Position numbers and translations under genes: made by a program
In this document: positions 35,567-49,062 of the stretch, one piece after another
How positions within the stretch are numbered: the stretch's first letter is position 1
Layout of the letters: every line of letters starts with the position of its first letter
Notes under the pieces: model-generated
Told to the model about the DNA's origin: nothing
Seen by the model: the letters and a program-made list of their open reading frames with translations, nothing else
Databases searched by the model: none
Origin: Pseudomonadota bacterium
GTDB taxonomy: Bacteria > Pseudomonadota > Gammaproteobacteria > Nitrosococcales > Methylophagaceae
Length of the DNA: 64,000 nt
Assembly (NCBI GenBank): GCA_030576275.1
Contig: JALIBN010000008.1
Span: 3,925-67,924, forward strand
Direction of reading: 5' to 3'

Positions 35567-35934
35567 ATATATCTCAAAAACTTTAAAAATGAATTAATTG
35601 TTAATTCTTGTGCCCAGAAAGTTAGTTACCTGTGGCTACTTCGAACAGGTAAATAGCCTTGTATGGCTATTAAATACTTTAAATTGTCTTACACGTCACA
35701 GCGTGATTTACTATATAGCTTAAGACCCGACAGCTCTCTTTAAATAAGCCCTCATTATAATTAAGAACAAAGCGCTTAGTGTTGAAATAAACTGAAATCC
35801 GATTGGGTACTGTTATTTCATCCTTGTCGACAACTCGTCTATAAGGCCGTTTTGCGTATGACAGCCAACACAAAGCCGCTGACTATGCTTTCAAACAATA
35901 GCCACTTTAATCACGGGGGTTAATGGAGAATAAC

Positions 35935-36007
35935 AAAAAATCTGCTACAACTGTAACAAGACAGTAGCATGATCAAAATGATCTCGTGTTAACGAGATCA
36001 TTTTGAT
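35935..36007 (-). terminator. tandem hairpins plus T-run downstream of the WY-repeat gene
   Basis: On the minus strand there is a 16-bp perfect stem at 36007-35972 (atcaaaatgatctcgt/acgagatcattttgat, loop gtta). A second hairpin follows at 35969-35943. A T6 run lies at 35940-35935. Confidence 0.5.
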
Positions 36008-36157
36008 ATTTAGAATAGGTATCAACACCTATATTAATAGATTACTTTCACCTGTATTGCCGATGCTCGTCGTTATATTGCCTATTCAAATAAGCCATTA
36101 ACCTAAGATCTGCCGACGGTGGAAGTAGTTATTATTACTACTAGAACTAAGTCCTAT

Positions 36158-37441
36158 TCAATCATTGGTCTGATTGACTCGAGTCGCCTCCAAGTTAGCT
36201 CGATACCATTTTTCCTTGCTAGCAAAGTGGCTCTTCATATCGGCGTCATACCAAGGTTTAACGTTACGGCTCGCTCGAGTGGCTTCTAAATTAGCTTGAT
36301 ACCATTTCTTTTTAGTTTCAGCATGAGGGTCAACATTTATATTAGCCTCATACCATGGCGTTGCAGTACTTTTAATTGATTGCAGATTCGCTTCATACCA
36401 TTTGGCTCGACTGGCGCGAGCAGTTACTAAGTTTGCTTCATACCATTTTCTCTTAGTTTCAAAATGGCCCTTCATCTCAGCGTTATACCAAGGCTTAACG
36501 TTACGGCTCACTCGAGCCGCTTCTAAATTAGCTTGATACCATTTCTTTTTAGTTTCAGCATGAGGGTCAACATTTATGTTAGCCTCATACCATGGTGCTG
36601 CAGTACTTTTAATTGATTGCAGATTCGCTTCATACCATTTGGTGCGACTGGCACGAGCGGCGACTAAATTAGCTTGATACCATTTCCTCTTAATTTCAAA
36701 ATGGCTTTTCATTTCAGCGTCATACCAAGGCTTACCAATTGTAGCCTCCTTGGCTTCATACCATTTATTTTGTGTTGCTCTTGCAGCTCTGGTGTTGGCT
36801 TCATACCACTTATTCTTAATATTTTTAGTTCTAATCAACGCAATATTGGCTTCATACCATTTCTTTTTAGTATCTGCATGCGGATCAAATGCTAAATTAG
36901 GATTCGCGTTATACCATGGTCTATTTTGACGGCTGATTCGTGCCGCTTCTAAATTGGCTTGATACCATTTCTTTTTAGCATCCGCATGAGGATCGACATT
37001 GATATTAGCCTCATACCAACGGCTAGCTGTAGTTGCTGTCATTTTTGTATTGGCTTCATACCATTTTACTCGACTTGCTCGAGCGGCTTCTAAATTACTT
37101 CGATACCATTCGCTTTTGATATCAGTCTGCGTATTAGCCTCATACCAAGGCGTTGGCGGTAAATTAGCCTCATACCATTTAGAACGGTTTTCTCTAACGG
37201 TTTTAACCGCCGCCTTTAAGTTGGCTTCATACCATTTATTTTTAGTATCTAAATGCTCTGCTAAACCAGCATCATACCAGTGTTTTCGGCTGATAACTGC
37301 AGGTTGACTATTCGCTTCGTACCAGCGTTTATCAGCCATTTTAGTTGTTTTTTTATTGGCTTGGTACCATTTAACCTGACTCGCACGTGCTGTTTGCAAA
37401 TTAGCTTCATACCATTTAGCTTTAATATCAATTGTACTCAT
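36158..37441 (-). CDS. uncharacterised WY(E/Q)AN tandem-repeat protein (427 aa)
   Basis: Start set to ATG 37441, which lies 7 nt after the strong SD AAGGGAGGTG; the track ORF begins at GTG 37471. I counted 27 WY-centred repeats. There is no signal peptide, TM segment or Cys. Confidence 0.7.
   Translation of the reverse strand: MSTIDIKAKWYEANLQTARASQVKWYQANKKTTKMADKRWYEANSQPAVISRKHWYDAGLAEHLDTKNKWYEANLKAAVKTVRENRSKWYEANLPPTPWYEANTQTDIKSEWYRSNLEAARASRVKWYEANTKMTATTASRWYEANINVDPHADAKKKWYQANLEAARISRQNRPWYNANPNLAFDPHADTKKKWYEANIALIRTKNIKNKWYEANTRAARATQNKWYEAKEATIGKPWYDAEMKSHFEIKRKWYQANLVAARASRTKWYEANLQSIKSTAAPWYEANINVDPHAETKKKWYQANLEAARVSRNVKPWYNAEMKGHFETKRKWYEANLVTARASRAKWYEANLQSIKSTATPWYEANINVDPHAETKKKWYQANLEATRASRNVKPWYDADMKSHFASKEKWYRANLEATRVNQTND
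36257..36730 (-). repeat. two near-identical 237-bp (79-codon) tandem units inside the WY-repeat gene
   Basis: Units 36257-36493 and 36494-36730 both encode PWY(N/D)AEMK.HFE.KRKWY.ANLV.ARASR.KWYEANLQSIKSTA.PWYEANINVDPHAETKKKWYQANLEA.R.SRNVK. They differ by only scattered substitutions. Confidence 0.85.
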
Positions 37442-37541
37442 TATTAACACCTCCCTTCTAGGTCTTGTCACTGTCTGATATTACATGAGTTCAAGATAAG
37501 TCCACAAGAGATTTATGCGATTTACGCACTAATTTGTTACA

Positions 37542-37967
37542 TTATTCAAAGCAATGTTTTTCGGCTTTTACTTGTTGAAATAAGGCAACCTTTTGTTCGA
37601 CTTCTATCATACGGCGTTGTTCCTTTTCTTCAACCAAGGCAGAGTAACCTAGGTAAGCAAAACCAAGCAGACCATGTACTATCGGAACACTGTCAAAAAC
37701 TATCAATGTAGTTGCTATTTGGTTAGCACCATCTTTATGAAATTCCGGTTTATAGCTATAGCGATAGGGCTGAAGATAGCGAATGGCACTATCAAGTTGT
37801 GCACAGCTTTGTTGATAAATCTCATCTGTTGCAACTTCCACTGGCGGCTCAAAATAAATCGGTTCTAACGGCACAGGTGGCATAGGCACAGCCTGAGCAG
37901 AGCTAATTACAAAGACAAAACTAATCACTACACATACTTTAGAAAGTGGCATGCTAATCATCTTCAT
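37542..37967 (-). CDS. hypothetical secreted/membrane-associated small protein (141 aa)
   Basis: It has an N-terminal signal peptide (VVISFVFVISSAQA|VP), a hydrophobic stretch (IVHGLLGFAYLGYSAL) and two Cys. I recognise no family. Confidence 0.55.
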   Translation of the reverse strand: MKMISMPLSKVCVVISFVFVISSAQAVPMPPVPLEPIYFEPPVEVATDEIYQQSCAQLDSAIRYLQPYRYSYKPEFHKDGANQIATTLIVFDSVPIVHGLLGFAYLGYSALVEEKEQRRMIEVEQKVALFQQVKAEKHCFE

Positions 37968-38306: not shown

Positions 38307-40706
38307 TCAGTCTTCATCGGCTGACTCTTTTTCATGCTTATGCACATCAATCCAAAGCTGTAGACGTTTAGCGATGGCCGCGTTAAAAGTTCCTTCAGGA
38401 TATTGCCCTTGTTCATCCAGTTGACCGACTTCAATACCTGAGAGTAAGGCCAGTGCCTGGTCAATTGAATCAACAGCATGGATCTGAAACTTATTGCCAG
38501 CCACCGCATCAATCACATCAGGTCTCAACATCAAATGCTGAACATTGCTGAGTGGAATAATAACGCCTTGCTCACCTGTTAGACCAAGCTTCATGCAGAC
38601 ATCAAAAAAGCCTTCAATTTTTTCATTAACACCACCAATAGCTTGAACTTCACCGTGTTGATTCATCGAACCAGTGATTGCTAATGATTGTTTTAATGGC
38701 AATTCAGCAATCGCAGATAACAAGGCACATAATTCAGCTGCTGTAGCACTATCACCATCAACCTCACCATAATTTTGTTCGAACACGAGACTTGCTGACA
38801 TAGACAGTGGTTGATCTTTGGCATAAGTCGAACCGAGATAACCACTCATAATCAACACCCCTTTAGAGTGTAAATCGCCGCCTAATTCAACTTCACGCTC
38901 AATATCGATAATATCGCCATCACCAAAACGGCAGTTAGCCGTCAAACGAGACGGCTGACCGAAACTGTATTCACCGATACCCAGAACGGTTAAGGCATTT
39001 ACTTCGCCTATGTGTACTCCGGTCACTTTAATACGAGTGATATTACGATCAATATGATCAATTAACTGGCCACGTATTCGATCAACACGTTGTTCACGAC
39101 TTTTTAACGCCTGCGTTACATGCTCCCGTGCGACCACGACAACCTGCTGCTTGCGTGCCCAATACGTTGATTCTCGTAATAAGTCAGTCATTGAGCCAAG
39201 ATGTAGTGACATTTTACTCTTCTCTTCCACCGACCGAGCAGCATGTTCAATCACTTTCGCAACGGCTTCTTTATCTAGATGAAGCAATCCTTCTTTTTGT
39301 ACTGTACTGGCAATAAGACGGGCATATAACAAATGATTCTCGGCTGTTCGTTCCATCTGATCTTCAAAATCTGCCACAACTTTAAATAACTCAGCAAATT
39401 CAGGATCATGCTCATAAAGTTGATAATATAAATGTCGGTCACCGAGCAATATCACTTTCAAATCGAGTGGTATAGGTTCAGGTTCAAGAGACACCGTAGC
39501 GACCAAACTGTACATCTGTTCTACGCTGTCAAAGCGAACTTCTTTTGAATGAAGTGCCCGCTTCAAGCCTTCCCACGAATACGGTTGCATAAGTAGCTGC
39601 TCCGCATCCAATATCAGATAACCACCATTAGCACGATGAATAGCACCGGCTTTAATCAAGCTAAAATCAGTGATCAAAGCGCCCATCATGGCCATATTTT
39701 CAACGCTACCTAGTAAACTTTGGTGGCTAGGAAAATTGTCATACACTACCGGAGCACCAATCGCATCTGCGTTATTAACGATTAGATTAATTTGATAACG
39801 CTTTAATAATGGACTGTCGATAGTGTGTGAAACTTCATCACCTTCATCATCTGGCTTTACAAATGCATCGACATTATTAAGTAAGTCTTTTTGCATGGCA
39901 TCAAAATACCGTTGTAGCCGATCAATCTTAGGGTAAGCATTTTTTAACTTATTTATCTGTCGGCTAATAACTTCAGTTGCTACTTCATCGTTCAATGCCG
40001 TTACTTTTGTCTGATTATCTCGTTCCCACTCACGCAATTCCAGTAAGGTATGTTGCAAATCCTCATGCAAAGTCGCGATTGCATCCTCAGTTTTTTCTTG
40101 CTGATCAACAGATAACTGATCAAATTCATCAGCAGTCATCGCTTCACCATTTCGCTGAGCAGCAAAGGCATAAGTGCCATCCTGCATGCGCAATAAAACA
40201 ATGCCTTTACGGTCTGCTTCTAATTGTAAAACACCAAACAAGCGAACTCGGTGTTTACGTGATGACTCGTCAATCGAACGCATTCGTCCGCGGTAATATT
40301 CATCGTCAAAGGCATGCGGTAACTCTTCCAATAAGTGATGGATTGCTTTCTCAATATCATGAATAAGTTGTGAACCTACTCCGTTTGCAAGCACTAAAAA
40401 CCAAGGTTTTTGTGGGTCGGTAAAATTATGTAAATACCCCCAATCTTTGCCATGAGGGCGGAGCTGAACATGTTCGTCAAGAAAACGCTTCACTAGCGTA
40501 TATTTACCCGATCCCGTGTCACCCATAACAAATAAGTTATAACCATTGCCTTCAATATTGACACCAAAGTCTACCGAATCTAATGCCCTAGATTGACCAA
40601 TAATGGTCGATAAGCCTTGCAATTCTCCCGTGGTTTTAAAGTTGAGCTGTTCGCTACTACAATGTTGATACAAACTATCTGGATGTAATTGGGTATTGAA
40701 ATTCAT
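38307..40706 (-). CDS. Lon-like AAA+ ATPase/S16 serine protease family protein
   Basis: 799 aa. It has Walker A GDTGSGKYT and a C-terminal Lon protease domain. The Ser-Lys dyad context is DGDSATAAELCALLSA and GGVNEKIEGF. Confidence 0.8.
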   Translation of the reverse strand: MNFNTQLHPDSLYQHCSSEQLNFKTTGELQGLSTIIGQSRALDSVDFGVNIEGNGYNLFVMGDTGSGKYTLVKRFLDEHVQLRPHGKDWGYLHNFTDPQKPWFLVLANGVGSQLIHDIEKAIHHLLEELPHAFDDEYYRGRMRSIDESSRKHRVRLFGVLQLEADRKGIVLLRMQDGTYAFAAQRNGEAMTADEFDQLSVDQQEKTEDAIATLHEDLQHTLLELREWERDNQTKVTALNDEVATEVISRQINKLKNAYPKIDRLQRYFDAMQKDLLNNVDAFVKPDDEGDEVSHTIDSPLLKRYQINLIVNNADAIGAPVVYDNFPSHQSLLGSVENMAMMGALITDFSLIKAGAIHRANGGYLILDAEQLLMQPYSWEGLKRALHSKEVRFDSVEQMYSLVATVSLEPEPIPLDLKVILLGDRHLYYQLYEHDPEFAELFKVVADFEDQMERTAENHLLYARLIASTVQKEGLLHLDKEAVAKVIEHAARSVEEKSKMSLHLGSMTDLLRESTYWARKQQVVVVAREHVTQALKSREQRVDRIRGQLIDHIDRNITRIKVTGVHIGEVNALTVLGIGEYSFGQPSRLTANCRFGDGDIIDIEREVELGGDLHSKGVLIMSGYLGSTYAKDQPLSMSASLVFEQNYGEVDGDSATAAELCALLSAIAELPLKQSLAITGSMNQHGEVQAIGGVNEKIEGFFDVCMKLGLTGEQGVIIPLSNVQHLMLRPDVIDAVAGNKFQIHAVDSIDQALALLSGIEVGQLDEQGQYPEGTFNAAIAKRLQLWIDVHKHEKESADED

Positions 40707-47962: not shown

Positions 47963-48399
47963 AAATTCTATTCTGATGTATATGAGAGTTATATACACAT
48001 ATCTCTTTAAACAATTAGCCCCCGCCCCCTCAATGCTTTTTAGCGAATCACATACAGAGTTTTTATGTGAGCGCTCCTCCTTCAGAACATCCCTGACGCT
48101 ATCATGAATTAAAACGTAAATCATAACCAGCATCCAGAAATCAAAAGCACTAACACCTAATTTATACCCACAAACACGCTCACTATAAAACTCATCACTT
48201 AAGGGCAATCTAATTGTAATAACTTAGCACCGCATTCAGATAATTGCAATTTCCATCTTGACTTTAACCTTACGACTGGATTAGGGTTCATTGCAACTAA
48301 CTATAAACAAGCCATTAACGCGAGAATTAATTACTAAACACAGTCAAGCAAAGCGGACTGGCTTAAGTGATTTTTAACACTAAGATAGGGGTATTTAAT

Positions 48400-49062
48400 A
48401 TGAAACAAGTATTTTTACTGATTTTTCTGCTGTCTTGTTTTGGCAATGCCATGGCTTGTTATGACGCGTCATTGAGCACCAAGCAAAACTTTGATAACTG
48501 TTTGGGCGAGGCTGAACAAGGTGATGCTAATGCTCAAAACTTTCTCGGACTTTTGTATGCTAATGGTCGAGGCGTATCGAAAGACTCCAAGCAAGCGGTG
48601 AAGTGGTATAAGAAAGCGGCTGAACAAGGTGAGGTTGATGCTCAATACAATCTCGGATACATGTACGCTAATGGTCGAGGCGTATCGAAAGACTACAAGC
48701 AAGCGGTGAAGTGGTATAAGAAAGCGGCTGAACAAGGTGAGGTTGATGCTCAGTACAATCTCGGATATATGTACGCTAATGGTCAAGGCTTAACGCAAGA
48801 CTACAAGCAAGCGGCGAAGTGGTACACAAAAGTGGCTGAACAAGGTGATGTTGATGCTCAGTACAATCTCGGATATATGTACGCTAATGGTCAAGGCGTT
48901 ACGCAAGACTATGTGATAGCCCTTATGTGGTGGAGTATTGCTGGTTCAACTGGTTTCGAAGAAGCAGTTAAAAACAGGGATATTGTTGCTAAAAAAATGA
49001 CACCGGAGCAAATACAAGAAGCGCAGCAGTTAGCACTAGAATGGGCGGCTAAACGCAACTAA
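48400..49062 (+). CDS. Sel1-repeat secreted protein
   Basis: ATG 48400 follows the SD AGGGG. It has a signal peptide (LLIFLLSCFGNAMA) and four or five Sel1 units (AVKWYKKAAEQGEVDAQYNLGYMYANGRGVSKDYKQ). Confidence 0.85.
   Translation: MKQVFLLIFLLSCFGNAMACYDASLSTKQNFDNCLGEAEQGDANAQNFLGLLYANGRGVSKDSKQAVKWYKKAAEQGEVDAQYNLGYMYANGRGVSKDYKQAVKWYKKAAEQGEVDAQYNLGYMYANGQGLTQDYKQAAKWYTKVAEQGDVDAQYNLGYMYANGQGVTQDYVIALMWWSIAGSTGFEEAVKNRDIVAKKMTPEQIQEAQQLALEWAAKRN
48562..48885 (+). repeat. three tandem 108-bp units (Sel1 repeats), first two nearly identical
   Basis: The units start at 48562, 48670 and 48778. The first two differ at only a few positions. Confidence 0.8.

What the first reader, a model, noticed from the sequence alone, without database searches (positions are those of the whole stretch)
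36158..37441. 427-aa protein made almost entirely of 27 WY(E/Q)AN repeats, with no family I can name
This minus-strand ORF has a strong SD (GGGAGG 7 nt before ATG 37441). I count 27 copies of [KRP]-W-Y-[EQDNR]-[AS]-[NEDGK], spaced 10-19 residues apart. As far as I can see, every Trp and every Tyr in the protein lies in one of these WY dipeptides. There is no Cys, signal peptide or TM segment, and the rest is dominated by K/R/E/A/N/T.

The motifs fall into five sub-types that form a 79-aa super-repeat:
- PWYxAEMKxHFExKR
- KWYxANLVxARASRx
- KWYEANLQSIKSTAx
- PWYEANINVDPHAETKK
- KWYQANLEAxRxSRNVK

It is not Sel1 (compare the genuine Sel1 protein at 48400-49062). It is also not TPR, MORN, pentapeptide or choline-binding repeats. 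A regular aromatic-plus-basic periodicity suggests a helical solenoid that might bind a polymer such as nucleic acid, polysaccharide or polyP. That is inference only.
Basis: partly seen in the sequence, partly recalled or inferred. Interest (0 to 1): 0.75.

Follow-up and report, generated by a model that had tools for sequence, protein, structure and literature searches.

The report
Trp-Tyr repeat protein of Methylophaga
This is a real, strongly conserved gene found so far only in marine methanol-using bacteria (Methylophagaceae); its basic, helical protein is built from 27 copies of a 15-residue "KWYEAN" unit that otherwise occurs in phage DNA-cutting and DNA-binding proteins, so it probably acts on DNA, although nobody has tested what it does.

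Summary
The minus-strand ORF 36158-37441 encodes 427 aa with 27 WY dipeptides, which account for every Trp and every Tyr, and no Cys.

It is a real gene:
- Syntenic orthologues occur in 51 Methylophaga/Methylophagaceae genomes, mostly as intact ORFs of 200-430 aa.
- dN/dS is 0.03-0.14.
- A sigma-70-like promoter and a Shine-Dalgarno site (SD) are conserved upstream.

No curated family or solved structure matches (Pfam, NCBIfam, PHROGs, PADLOC, PDB sequences, Foldseek).

The unit is not unique, however. The same 15-residue module, [KR]-W-[YR]-E-A-N-x-[ED]-[KR]-x-[RK]-E-x-x-[RK], forms arrays in phage zinc-ribbon/HNH endonucleases, in a phage helix-turn-helix (HTH) protein and in many small array-only proteins. 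A profile-profile comparison gives 98% probability, E = 1.7e-14, in register. Eight controls that permute positions within the unit score 5-20 against 65.5.

All family members are basic (pI 9.05-9.8). AlphaFold2 predicts long helices broken at Pro-rich linkers, but their packing is unreliable.

Best reading: a stand-alone, non-enzymatic helical repeat array that acts on DNA. The function is inferred, not shown. It belongs to an uncurated repeat family, is of moderate interest, and is not Sel1, TPR, MORN, pentapeptide or choline-binding.

The parts
36158..37441 (-). Coding sequence of the 427-aa WY-repeat protein (27 units; stop codon at 36158-36160)
   Evidence: Translation and motif count. 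Orthologues in 51 genomes. dN/dS 0.03-0.14.
36731..37441 (-). N-terminal half (aa 1-237, units 1-15): an old array of diverged units that are orthologous unit by unit to those of other Methylophagaceae
   Evidence: Alignments A1 and A2. Orthologous units keep 44% identity at non-motif positions, against 19-22% for non-orthologous units.
36223..36734 (-). Lineage-specific tandem duplication of a 237-nt (79-aa, five-unit) super-repeat: 2.2 copies at 90% identity
   Evidence: Tandem Repeats Finder. Codon comparison. The close relative L004 lacks exactly one 79-aa copy.
37450..37455 (-). Shine-Dalgarno sequence GGGAGG, 8 nt upstream of the ATG
   Evidence: Sequence. A purine-rich GGAG/AGAGG element sits at the same place in relatives.
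37478..37507 (-). Conserved sigma-70-like promoter: -35 TTGTGG (37507-37502), 18-nt spacer, TG (37485-37484), -10 TAATAT (37483-37478)
   Evidence: An alignment of 22 upstream regions shows conserved CTTGT...TGTAnTATC blocks. It is a consensus match; activity was not tested.
37542..37967 (-). Conserved upstream neighbour p141: a small protein with a signal peptide, a hydrophobic stretch and two conserved Cys. A functional link to the WY gene is unproven.
   Evidence: It lies directly upstream of the WY gene in almost all loci, even where the Lon-like gene is absent. No family hit.

Best explanation
**What it is**
The ORF is an expressed-looking, single-copy chromosomal gene. By the searches run here it was found only in Methylophagaceae. 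Its product is a cytoplasmic, strongly basic, alpha-helical tandem-repeat protein.

**How it is built**
The building block is a 15-residue module, K-W-Y-E-A-N-L-x-x-A-R-x-x-x-K. The same module forms arrays in phage zinc-ribbon/HNH endonucleases, in a phage HTH protein and in many small array-only proteins. In Methylophagaceae the module has been expanded to 11-29 units. The catalytic, zinc and HTH domains are all absent.

**Most likely mechanism (inferred)**
The array is a non-enzymatic nucleic-acid-binding surface, most probably for DNA. Lys and Arg would contact phosphates. The invariant Asn and the Trp-Tyr pairs would either pack the helices together or contact bases. Each unit has its own conserved variable residues. 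The protein would therefore act as a lineage-specific architectural or protective DNA-binding protein.

**Shown versus inferred**
- Shown: a real gene, a conserved family, the shared module, basic charge, and predicted helicity.
- Inferred: DNA binding and the cellular role.
For: **Real, constrained gene**
- 51 loci in Methylophaga/Methylophagaceae genomes, mostly with intact ORFs.
- The same synteny throughout: COQ7, PilZ, (Lon-like), p141, WY, (MBL), carbonic anhydrase, BamE, Fur.
- dN/dS 0.03-0.14.
- A conserved promoter and SD upstream.

**Shared module**
- The exhaustive phmmer search and the profile search retrieve zinc-ribbon + array + HNH proteins at E = 1e-10 to 1e-4.
- The nuclease arrays have a strict 15-residue period.
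- The unit logos agree at positions 1-6, 11, 12 and 15.
- hhalign of four-unit profiles gives 98.3% probability, E = 1.7e-14, score 65.5, in register 1-60/1-60. Eight within-unit permutation controls score 5-20.

**Association with DNA-acting domains**
- 15 of the 25 non-family hits carry Pfam HNH domains.
- phrog_1035 'endonuclease VII' spans the array region.
- Phage genomes and contigs carry array+HNH, zinc-ribbon+array+HNH and array+HTH_3 proteins.

**Charge**
- Every family member examined has pI 9.05-9.8 and net charge +8 to +30. The nuclease arrays have pI 9.2-11.2.

**Helicity**
- AlphaFold2 on aa 1-237 gives mean pLDDT 78.7 and is all-helical.

**Unit-specific conservation**
- Orthologous units share 44% identity at non-motif positions, against 19-22% for non-orthologous units. 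This argues for position-specific roles, not a generic filler.
Against: - No experiment or solved structure shows that the 15-residue array binds DNA in any protein. In the nucleases it could equally be a spacer or an oligomerisation element.
- The AlphaFold2 tertiary arrangement is unreliable (pTM 0.18 and 0.30). Foldseek finds nothing.
- The gene sits among housekeeping genes with no DNA-related neighbour. Its constant partner p141 is a secreted or membrane protein.
- E-values between repeat proteins are inflated, because one matching unit makes every unit match. The effective evidence is one ordered 15-residue motif plus the shared period.
- Expression was not verified. The only Methylophaga proteome paper found could not be mapped to this gene.
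Confidence: 0.4

Rival explanations
1. It is a fibrous or coiled-coil scaffold or oligomerisation protein. The 15-residue period gives long amphipathic helices that pair or bundle, as in non-heptad pentadecad-type coiled coils. On this reading the module serves in phage nucleases as a dimerisation or spacer rod. In Methylophagaceae it serves as a structural element, possibly working with p141.
For: - AlphaFold2 predicts helices of 31-47 residues spanning two or three units, not one helix per unit.
- Many phage arrays (QKAWYEANKDKVAAQ) contain no helix breaker at all.
- Array length varies freely, from 3 to 12 units in phage proteins and 11 to 29 in the family, as expected of a rod or spacer.
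- The constant neighbour p141 is a non-cytoplasmic protein.
Against: - About 30% of nuclease units have Pro at position 7. In the family's 15-residue units, Pro stands at position 1 in 29% and at position 9 in 25%. The array therefore cannot be a continuous helix.
- The hydrophobic stripe is narrow and includes the invariant polar Asn.
- A strong net positive charge is conserved in every member. A neutral scaffold would not need it.
- Unit-specific residues are conserved among orthologues.
- The WY gene has its own promoter, so co-function with p141 is not implied.
Confidence: 0.25
2. It is a stress-protective hydrophilin, or a binder of polyanions other than nucleic acid. Examples are an LEA-like helical protein that protects a halophilic methylotroph against osmotic stress, or a binder of polyphosphate or polysaccharide.
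For: - The composition is very hydrophilic: ILVMF make up only 12-15%, and the protein is rich in A, K, E, N and T.
- The repeats are amphipathic and helical.
- The family was found only in a group of bacteria known (from my own knowledge) to be salt-loving.
- Aromatic residues next to Asn or Glu are typical of sugar-binding surfaces (my own knowledge).
Against: - LEA-type proteins lack Trp and have 11-residue repeats. No LEA or other Pfam hit was found.
- There is no signal peptide, so extracellular polysaccharide is an unlikely ligand.
- This reading does not explain why the same module is fused to HNH and HTH domains in phages.
- Unit-specific conservation and low dN/dS are stronger than expected for a bulk protectant.
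Confidence: 0.1
3. It is a diverged member of a known helical repeat family (Sel1, TPR or HAT-like) that the family models fail to recognise.
For: The genuine Sel1-like protein in the same window (48367-49062) has the motif KWYKKAAEQG, which superficially resembles KWYEANL.
Against: - There is no Sel1 or TPR hit even at E <= 10.
- The period is 15-17 residues, not 34-44.
- The protein has only 3 Gly in 427 residues, whereas Sel1 and TPR depend on conserved Gly/Ala positions (my own knowledge).
- A family profile against PDB sequences finds no TPR or Sel1 structure.
Confidence: 0.04
4. It is not a functional gene, only an open frame created by a DNA repeat, or a decaying pseudogene.
For: - Three relatives (L001, L042, L045) have a frameshift or a gap inside the gene.
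- Antisense ORFs of 73 and 102 aa overlap the gene.
Against: - Most of the other loci keep the frame intact across about 45% protein divergence.
- dN/dS is 0.03-0.14.
- Only the C-terminal 237-nt unit is repeated at the DNA level.
- The promoter and SD are conserved.
- The disruptions lie in long internal duplications or at N-gaps, which is typical of assembly trouble.
Confidence: 0.02

Closest known systems
15-residue KW[YR]EAN arrays of phage zinc-ribbon/HNH endonucleases (annotated 'HNH endonuclease' or 'endonuclease VII'; phrog_1035), and array-only or array-HTH phage proteins
   Same: - The same 15-residue period.
- The same ordered motif: K-W-Y/R-E-A-N at positions 1-6, a basic residue at 11, an acidic residue at 12, and a basic residue at 15.
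- Basic charge and helical propensity.
- The profile-profile match is in register.
   Different: - The Methylophagaceae protein has no zinc ribbon, HNH or HTH domain.
- It is much longer: 11-29 units against 3-12.
- Position 7 is Leu, Ile or Met instead of Pro, Lys or Arg.
- It mixes 14-, 15- and 17-residue units, including a DPHAD insert.
- It is a vertically inherited chromosomal gene in a housekeeping neighbourhood, not a phage gene.
- The module itself has no model in the copies of Pfam-A and NCBIfam used here, and I found no paper describing it.
Sel1 and TPR helical hairpin repeats
   Same: Both are alpha-helical tandem repeats with a conserved aromatic residue and Ala on the packing face. 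Both contain a 'KWY..A' string.
   Different: The period is 34-44 residues, not 15-17. Sel1 and TPR have Gly-dependent turns. No HMM hit was found. Secreted Sel1 proteins carry signal peptides, and this one does not.
Modular nucleic-acid-binding helical repeats (TALE, PUF, PPR)
   Same: Long arrays of short helical units, in which each unit has its own conserved variable residues. The arrays are basic. This is a functional analogy only.
   Different: There is no sequence or profile similarity. The one PPR-like hit, P0039, is a chance WY match. Those units have 33-36 residues and two or three helices. No base-specifying code is known here.
[quoted passage not shown]
   Same: Short modules repeated next to HNH or GIY-YIG nuclease domains. 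One hit, P0035, appears by eye (not tested) to combine a GIY-YIG-like N-terminus, a NUMOD3-like SEETRQKMS string and KKWYEENPEA repeats.
   Different: No NUMOD Pfam model matches either the window protein or the phage arrays. The motif is different.
Non-heptad (pentadecad, 15-residue) coiled coils such as the stalks of trimeric autotransporter adhesins
   Same: A 15-residue periodicity in predicted long helices, and a conserved Asn. The comparison comes from my own knowledge and was not tested.
   Different: There is no signal peptide, anchor or head domain. Pro-rich breaks are frequent. The hydrophobic positions fit the a/d/e/h/l core pattern only in part.

Membership tests
Sel1 repeat (Pfam PF08238) | Match to the Sel1 HMM; 36-44-residue units with conserved Gly/Ala positions | tested here: not met
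   No Sel1 hit at E <= 10. The period is 15-17 residues and the protein has 3 Gly.
TPR | Match to TPR HMMs; a 34-residue helix-turn-helix unit | tested here: not met
   No TPR hit. A family profile finds no TPR structure in the PDB.
Pentapeptide repeat | Tandem A(D/N)LXX pentapeptides that form a beta-helix; HMM match above cut-off | tested here: not met
   The only trace is NCBIfam HetL at 26 bits against a cut-off of 260. The models are all-helical.
Choline-binding / cell-wall-binding repeats and MORN | Repeats of about 20-23 residues rich in Gly and aromatics, with an HMM match; choline-binding proteins are secreted | tested here: not met
   No Pfam hit. No signal peptide was seen by eye. 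The period is 15-17 residues.
Phage nuclease-associated 15-residue array (uncurated) | A strict period of about 15 residues | tested here: met
   Family spacings are 14, 15 and 17, with 15 the most common at 335 of about 890 intervals. The nuclease arrays have spacings of 15 or multiples of it.
Phage nuclease-associated 15-residue array (uncurated) | The ordered motif K-W-[YR]-E-A-N ... [RK]11-[ED]12 ... [RK]15 | tested here: met
   Unit logos. hhalign gives 98.3% probability, E = 1.7e-14, in register; permutation controls score 5-20.
Phage nuclease-associated 15-residue array (uncurated) | Fusion to a zinc ribbon, HNH or HTH domain | tested here: not met
   The window protein has no Cys and no HNH, HTH or zinc-ribbon hit. 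Array-only proteins do exist in phage contigs, so fusion is not obligatory.
Phage nuclease-associated 15-residue array (uncurated) | Phage or mobile-element context | tested here: not met
   The chromosomal housekeeping synteny is conserved in 51 genomes. No relative was confirmed in viral contigs. No defence-system hit.
NUMOD1/3/4 | Match to the NUMOD HMMs | tested here: not met
   No hit in the window protein or in the phage array proteins.
DNA-binding protein (functional class) | Direct binding to nucleic acid | not testable with these tools
   Only indirect support is available: basic charge and association with DNA-acting domains.

The most novel reading that the evidence does not exclude
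The KWYEAN unit is a new modular DNA- or RNA-recognition repeat, one unit per nucleotide or per short step. Phage homing-type nucleases would use it to read extended target sites. Methylophagaceae would have domesticated it into a 27-unit stand-alone reader whose unit-specific residues (positions 7-14, conserved among orthologues) spell a fixed chromosomal target. That would make it a TALE/PUF-like programmable scaffold of only 15 residues per unit.
Probability: 0.08. Interest if true: 0.85.

Novelty: new variant of a known kind. Interest (0 to 1): 0.5.

Why it matters
- It defines a protein family with no model in the copies of Pfam-A, NCBIfam, PHROGs or PADLOC used here and no solved structure. 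The searches here found the family only in Methylophagaceae. It is under strong selection there, so it probably matters for the biology of these abundant marine methylotrophs.
- It links that family to a short helical module that is common in phage HNH endonucleases, HTH proteins and small phage proteins. No Pfam-A model, solved structure or paper searched here describes that module. Working out what the module does would annotate many phage genes at once.
- If the module reads DNA, its small unit size would interest people who engineer DNA-binding proteins.

Tried and rejected
- **Curated libraries.** Pfam, NCBIfam, PHROGs and PADLOC gave only sub-threshold noise for the WY protein: Vesi_VP2, Fimbrillin_C, HetL, HspQ and phrog_8331.
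- **PDB by sequence.** Neither the single sequence nor the family profile found anything.
- **Word-indexed protein search.** With the protein and with the family profile it returned only 1 and 7 hits. An exact look-up showed that none of 10 family sequences is in that collection, so counts from it say little about how the family is distributed.
- **AlphaFold2 on the single full-length sequence.** Poor: pLDDT 55.6, pTM 0.18.
- **The 28-sequence family alignment.** I therefore modelled aa 1-237 with metagenome fragments plus trimmed nuclease arrays. That gave good local confidence but pTM 0.30. Foldseek of this model against the PDB and BFVD found nothing.
- **Alignment A4.** It included whole HNH proteins and mis-aligned the HNH domains to the C-terminal repeats, so I did not use it for modelling.
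- **Viral contigs.** No relative of the full-length family was confirmed.
- **Rfam.** Nothing in the region.
- **Literature.** Searches for the motif strings and for Methylophaga proteomics found no description. The supplements of the M. thiooxydans proteome paper (PMC6548844) could not be mapped to this gene.
- **Hits set aside.** P0030 (acidic WY..LLG repeats) and P0039 (PPR-like) are chance WY matches.
- **Phase variation at poly-A tracts.** Considered and dropped: the window gene has only one A7 run.
Full report
**1. The observation**

Translating window 36158-37441 on the minus strand gives a 427-aa protein plus a stop codon. A script counted 27 WY dipeptides. The protein has 27 Trp and 27 Tyr in total, so every one lies in such a pair. 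There is no Cys. The spacings are 15, 15, 15, 15, 19, 10, 13, 15, 15, 17, 17, 19, 17, 15, 12, 15, 15, 15, 17, 17, 15, 15, 15, 17, 17, 15.

The residue before W is K, R or P in 25 of 27 units. GGGAGG lies at 37455-37450, 8 nt before the ATG at 37441. The 79-aa super-repeat is real, but it covers only the C-terminal part. Tandem Repeats Finder reports a 237-nt period, 2.2 copies and 90% matches at 36223-36734. The two full copies differ at 11 synonymous and 9 non-synonymous codons.

**2. It is a real, conserved gene**

The window matches a contig of NCBI assembly GCA_030577615.1. A scan of one genome per species (185,579 species) with peptide patterns from the protein found 51 loci that encode relatives. 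All are in Methylophaga or Methylophagaceae. They include the cultured M. sulfidovorans DSM 11578, M. lonarensis MPL, M. thiooxydans DMS010, M. muralis Bur 1 and M. pinxianii.

Most loci carry an intact ORF in the same frame:
- 368-432 aa in the majority;
- 202-267 aa in a few lineages;
- 22, 26 and 27 units in the three closest relatives.

Locus L004 lacks exactly one 79-aa super-repeat compared with the window.

Gene order is the same everywhere: COQ7, PilZ, a Lon-like protease (absent in some), a 140-aa unknown protein (p141), the WY gene, an MBL-fold gene (absent in the window lineage), beta-carbonic anhydrase, BamE, Fur.

Nei-Gojobori estimates for ten orthologue pairs give dN/dS of 0.03-0.14 for the nine pairs where dS was not saturated. 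Upstream regions from 22 loci share a sigma-70-like promoter and a purine-rich ribosome-binding site. In the window the promoter reads TTGTGG, 18 nt, TG-n-TAATAT.

Three relatives are interrupted: L001, L042 and L045. In each case the break is a frameshift or a run of N inside a long internal duplication, which points to assembly trouble, not decay.

**3. Architecture of the family**

The 28-sequence alignment shows that units are orthologous column by column.
- Most Methylophaga proteins contain an old internal duplication of about 185 aa (about 12 units).
- Recurring unit types include PWYEANMVxHLDTKK, KWYEANLxxAVxxVRAxR and KWYEANLHPDPHADIKK.
- The window lineage has rebuilt its C-terminal half with the recent 79-aa duplication.

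In protein pairs below 60% identity, orthologous units keep 44% identity at non-motif positions. Non-orthologous units keep 19-22%. The array is therefore old and is not being homogenised, and each unit is under its own constraint.

In 15-residue units the logo is [K/P/H]-W-Y-E-A-N-[L/Q/M]-x-x-[A/H]-[R/K]-[E/D]-[T/S]-K-K. In 17-residue units a DPHAD-type insert is added. All members examined are basic, with pI 9.05-9.8 and net charge +8 to +30. They have only 12-15% aliphatic or Phe residues.

**4. Known families**

Pfam, NCBIfam, PHROGs and PADLOC give nothing above threshold. No Sel1, TPR, MORN, pentapeptide or cell-wall-binding model appears even at E <= 10. PDB sequences give nothing with either the protein or the family profile.

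It has 36-residue units with the motif KWYKKAAEQG, which is clearly a different repeat.

**5. The unit is shared with phage nucleases**

The family profile search and the exhaustive phmmer search of 1.84 billion cluster representatives returned two kinds of hit. One kind was metagenomic fragments of this family. The other was a second tier of proteins of about 180-480 aa (E = 1e-10 to 1e-4) with this layout: an N-terminal CxxC...CxxC zinc ribbon, then 3-10 tandem copies of RKW[YR]EAN[P/L/K]E[KR]xxExxR, then an HNH nuclease domain.

Evidence that the two repeats are the same module:
- The nuclease arrays have a strict 15-residue period.
- Their logo agrees with the family logo at positions 1-6, 11, 12 and 15.
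- hhalign of gap-free four-unit profiles gives 98.3% probability, E = 1.7e-14 and score 65.5, aligned 1-60 to 1-60.
- Eight controls applied the same random permutation to the 15 positions of every nuclease unit, which keeps composition and period. They score only 5-20.

The similarity therefore lies in the ordered motif, not in composition or periodicity. E-values between repeat proteins remain inflated, because units are not independent.

**6. Where the module occurs**

- 15 of the 25 non-family hits carry Pfam HNH domains.
- phrog_1035 ('endonuclease VII') spans their array region.
- Close relatives sit in Ralstonia, Streptomyces, Bacillus and Gordonia phage genomes, annotated as HNH endonuclease or endonuclease VII.
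- One hit lies in a phage replication module.

A DNA pattern for two WYEAN motifs 15 residues apart found 19 stretches in viral contigs. Their architectures are zinc ribbon + array + HNH, array + HNH-like, a Cys-rich N-terminus + array + HTH_3, and array only, up to 12 units. A four-unit profile also retrieved 50 small array-containing proteins of 45-105 aa from metagenomes.

No Pfam-A model in the copy used here covers the array in any of these proteins. One precomputed accession, PF27269.1 on P0061, is missing from that copy and could not be inspected.

**7. Structure**

AlphaFold2 on the single full-length sequence was poor: pLDDT 55.6, pTM 0.18, all-helical. I therefore modelled aa 1-237 with metagenome fragments of the family plus trimmed nuclease arrays, which aligned in register.

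The result has mean pLDDT 78.7 but pTM 0.30. The helices are 3-44, 53-93, 104-147, a kinked stretch at 153-184, and 189-235, with breaks at Pro-rich linkers. Helicity is thus well supported. A one-helix-per-unit solenoid is not. The packing is unknown. Foldseek found nothing in the PDB or BFVD.

Pro occupies position 7 in 30% of nuclease units, and positions 1 or 9 in a quarter to a third of the family's 15-residue units. The array therefore cannot be a single continuous helix.

**8. Most likely function**

The protein has no catalytic, zinc-binding or HTH domain, no signal peptide and no transmembrane segment. What it shares with the phage proteins is the array alone. In phages that array is fused again and again to domains that act on DNA. 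The array is basic in both settings.

The best-supported reading is a stand-alone, non-enzymatic DNA-binding (or more generally nucleic-acid-binding) helical repeat protein. It was probably derived from, or shares ancestry with, the phage module. It became fixed in the Methylophagaceae ancestor as a chromosomal gene with its own promoter. I give this 0.4.

The main rival, at 0.25, is that the module is a rod or oligomerisation element and that the Methylophagaceae protein is a structural scaffold. The long predicted helices and the freely varying unit number favour this rival. The conserved positive charge, the frequent prolines and the unit-specific conservation argue against it.

The other readings are less likely:
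- an LEA-like protectant or a binder of other polyanions: 0.1;
- an unrecognised Sel1 or TPR protein: 0.04;
- a non-gene: 0.02.

**9. Novelty and interest**

The gene is presumably annotated only as a hypothetical protein; source names could not be checked, because the family's sequences are missing from the named protein collection. The family and the 15-residue module have no model in the copies of Pfam-A, NCBIfam, PHROGs or PADLOC used here and no solved structure, and I found no paper on either.

It is a new type within the known kind "alpha-helical tandem-repeat protein", not a new kind of system. Interest is moderate at 0.5. The Trp/Tyr pattern and the lineage restriction are striking, and the phage link makes the function testable. 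No open question is resolved, though, and the function remains inferred.

Noticed in passing
window 37542-37967 (-): p141 is a 141-aa protein with a signal peptide (SSAQA|VP), two conserved Cys, a hydrophobic stretch and a conserved C-terminus KAEKHCFE. It has no hit in Pfam, NCBIfam or PADLOC. It lies directly upstream of the WY gene in almost every Methylophagaceae locus, including those without the Lon-like gene.
   Followed up: partly
window 35567-36157: In most Methylophaga an MBL-fold hydrolase gene sits between the WY gene and the beta-carbonic anhydrase gene. In the window lineage it is gone without trace, leaving 590 nt of non-coding DNA. A 64-aa ORF (35679-35873) in this spacer is only weakly conserved.
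   Followed up: partly
window 35972-36007: A perfect 16-bp-stem hairpin (AUCAAAAUGAUCUCGU-UAAC-ACGAGAUCAUUUUGAU) lies about 150 nt downstream of the WY stop codon. The folding z-score is -5.3. It occurs once in the window and in none of the fetched relatives. A weaker hairpin followed by a T6 run comes just after it. Together they may be the terminator or a protein-binding palindrome.
   Followed up: partly
L001:6049-7280, L042:10013-11300, L045:10001-11400: Three relatives, including the isolate M. muralis Bur 1, have a frameshift or an N-gap inside the gene. The break is always within the roughly 185-aa internal duplication. Several metagenome fragments (P0009, P0010, P0015) end in frameshifted 'NG[TI]K..' text. 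This is probably assembly or sequencing trouble, not decay.
   Followed up: partly
L056-L074 (viral contigs); P0042-P0091: The 15-residue KAWYEANK[DE]K module is common in phage contigs and takes many architectures. Examples are fusion to an HTH_3 domain (L056), a zf-DBF finger (P0083), and array-only proteins of 45-217 aa. No Pfam-A model in the copy used here covers the array.
   Followed up: partly
P0061 (metagenome protein): This protein carries a precomputed Pfam accession, PF27269.1, that is absent from the local Pfam copy. I could not establish what it models. It was not listed for P0003-P0005, which have the same zinc ribbon and more repeat units.
   Followed up: no
window 38307-40706 (-): A 799-aa Lon-like protease (AAA_32, LonB AAA-LID, LonC helical and Lon_C domains) lies two genes upstream. 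It is present in most but not all Methylophagaceae loci. It gives a weak BrxL-like hit in PADLOC (E = 3e-4).
   Followed up: no
It has a signal peptide and 36-residue units with the motif AVKWYKKAAEQG...AQYNLGYMYANG. I checked it by eye only, not by HMM.
   Followed up: partly
protein collections used by the search tools: None of 10 full-length family sequences, including the window protein, is in the 15-billion-protein collection by exact look-up. The 50%-identity representatives hold only fragments of the family. Hit counts from those searches therefore understate the family.
   Followed up: yes
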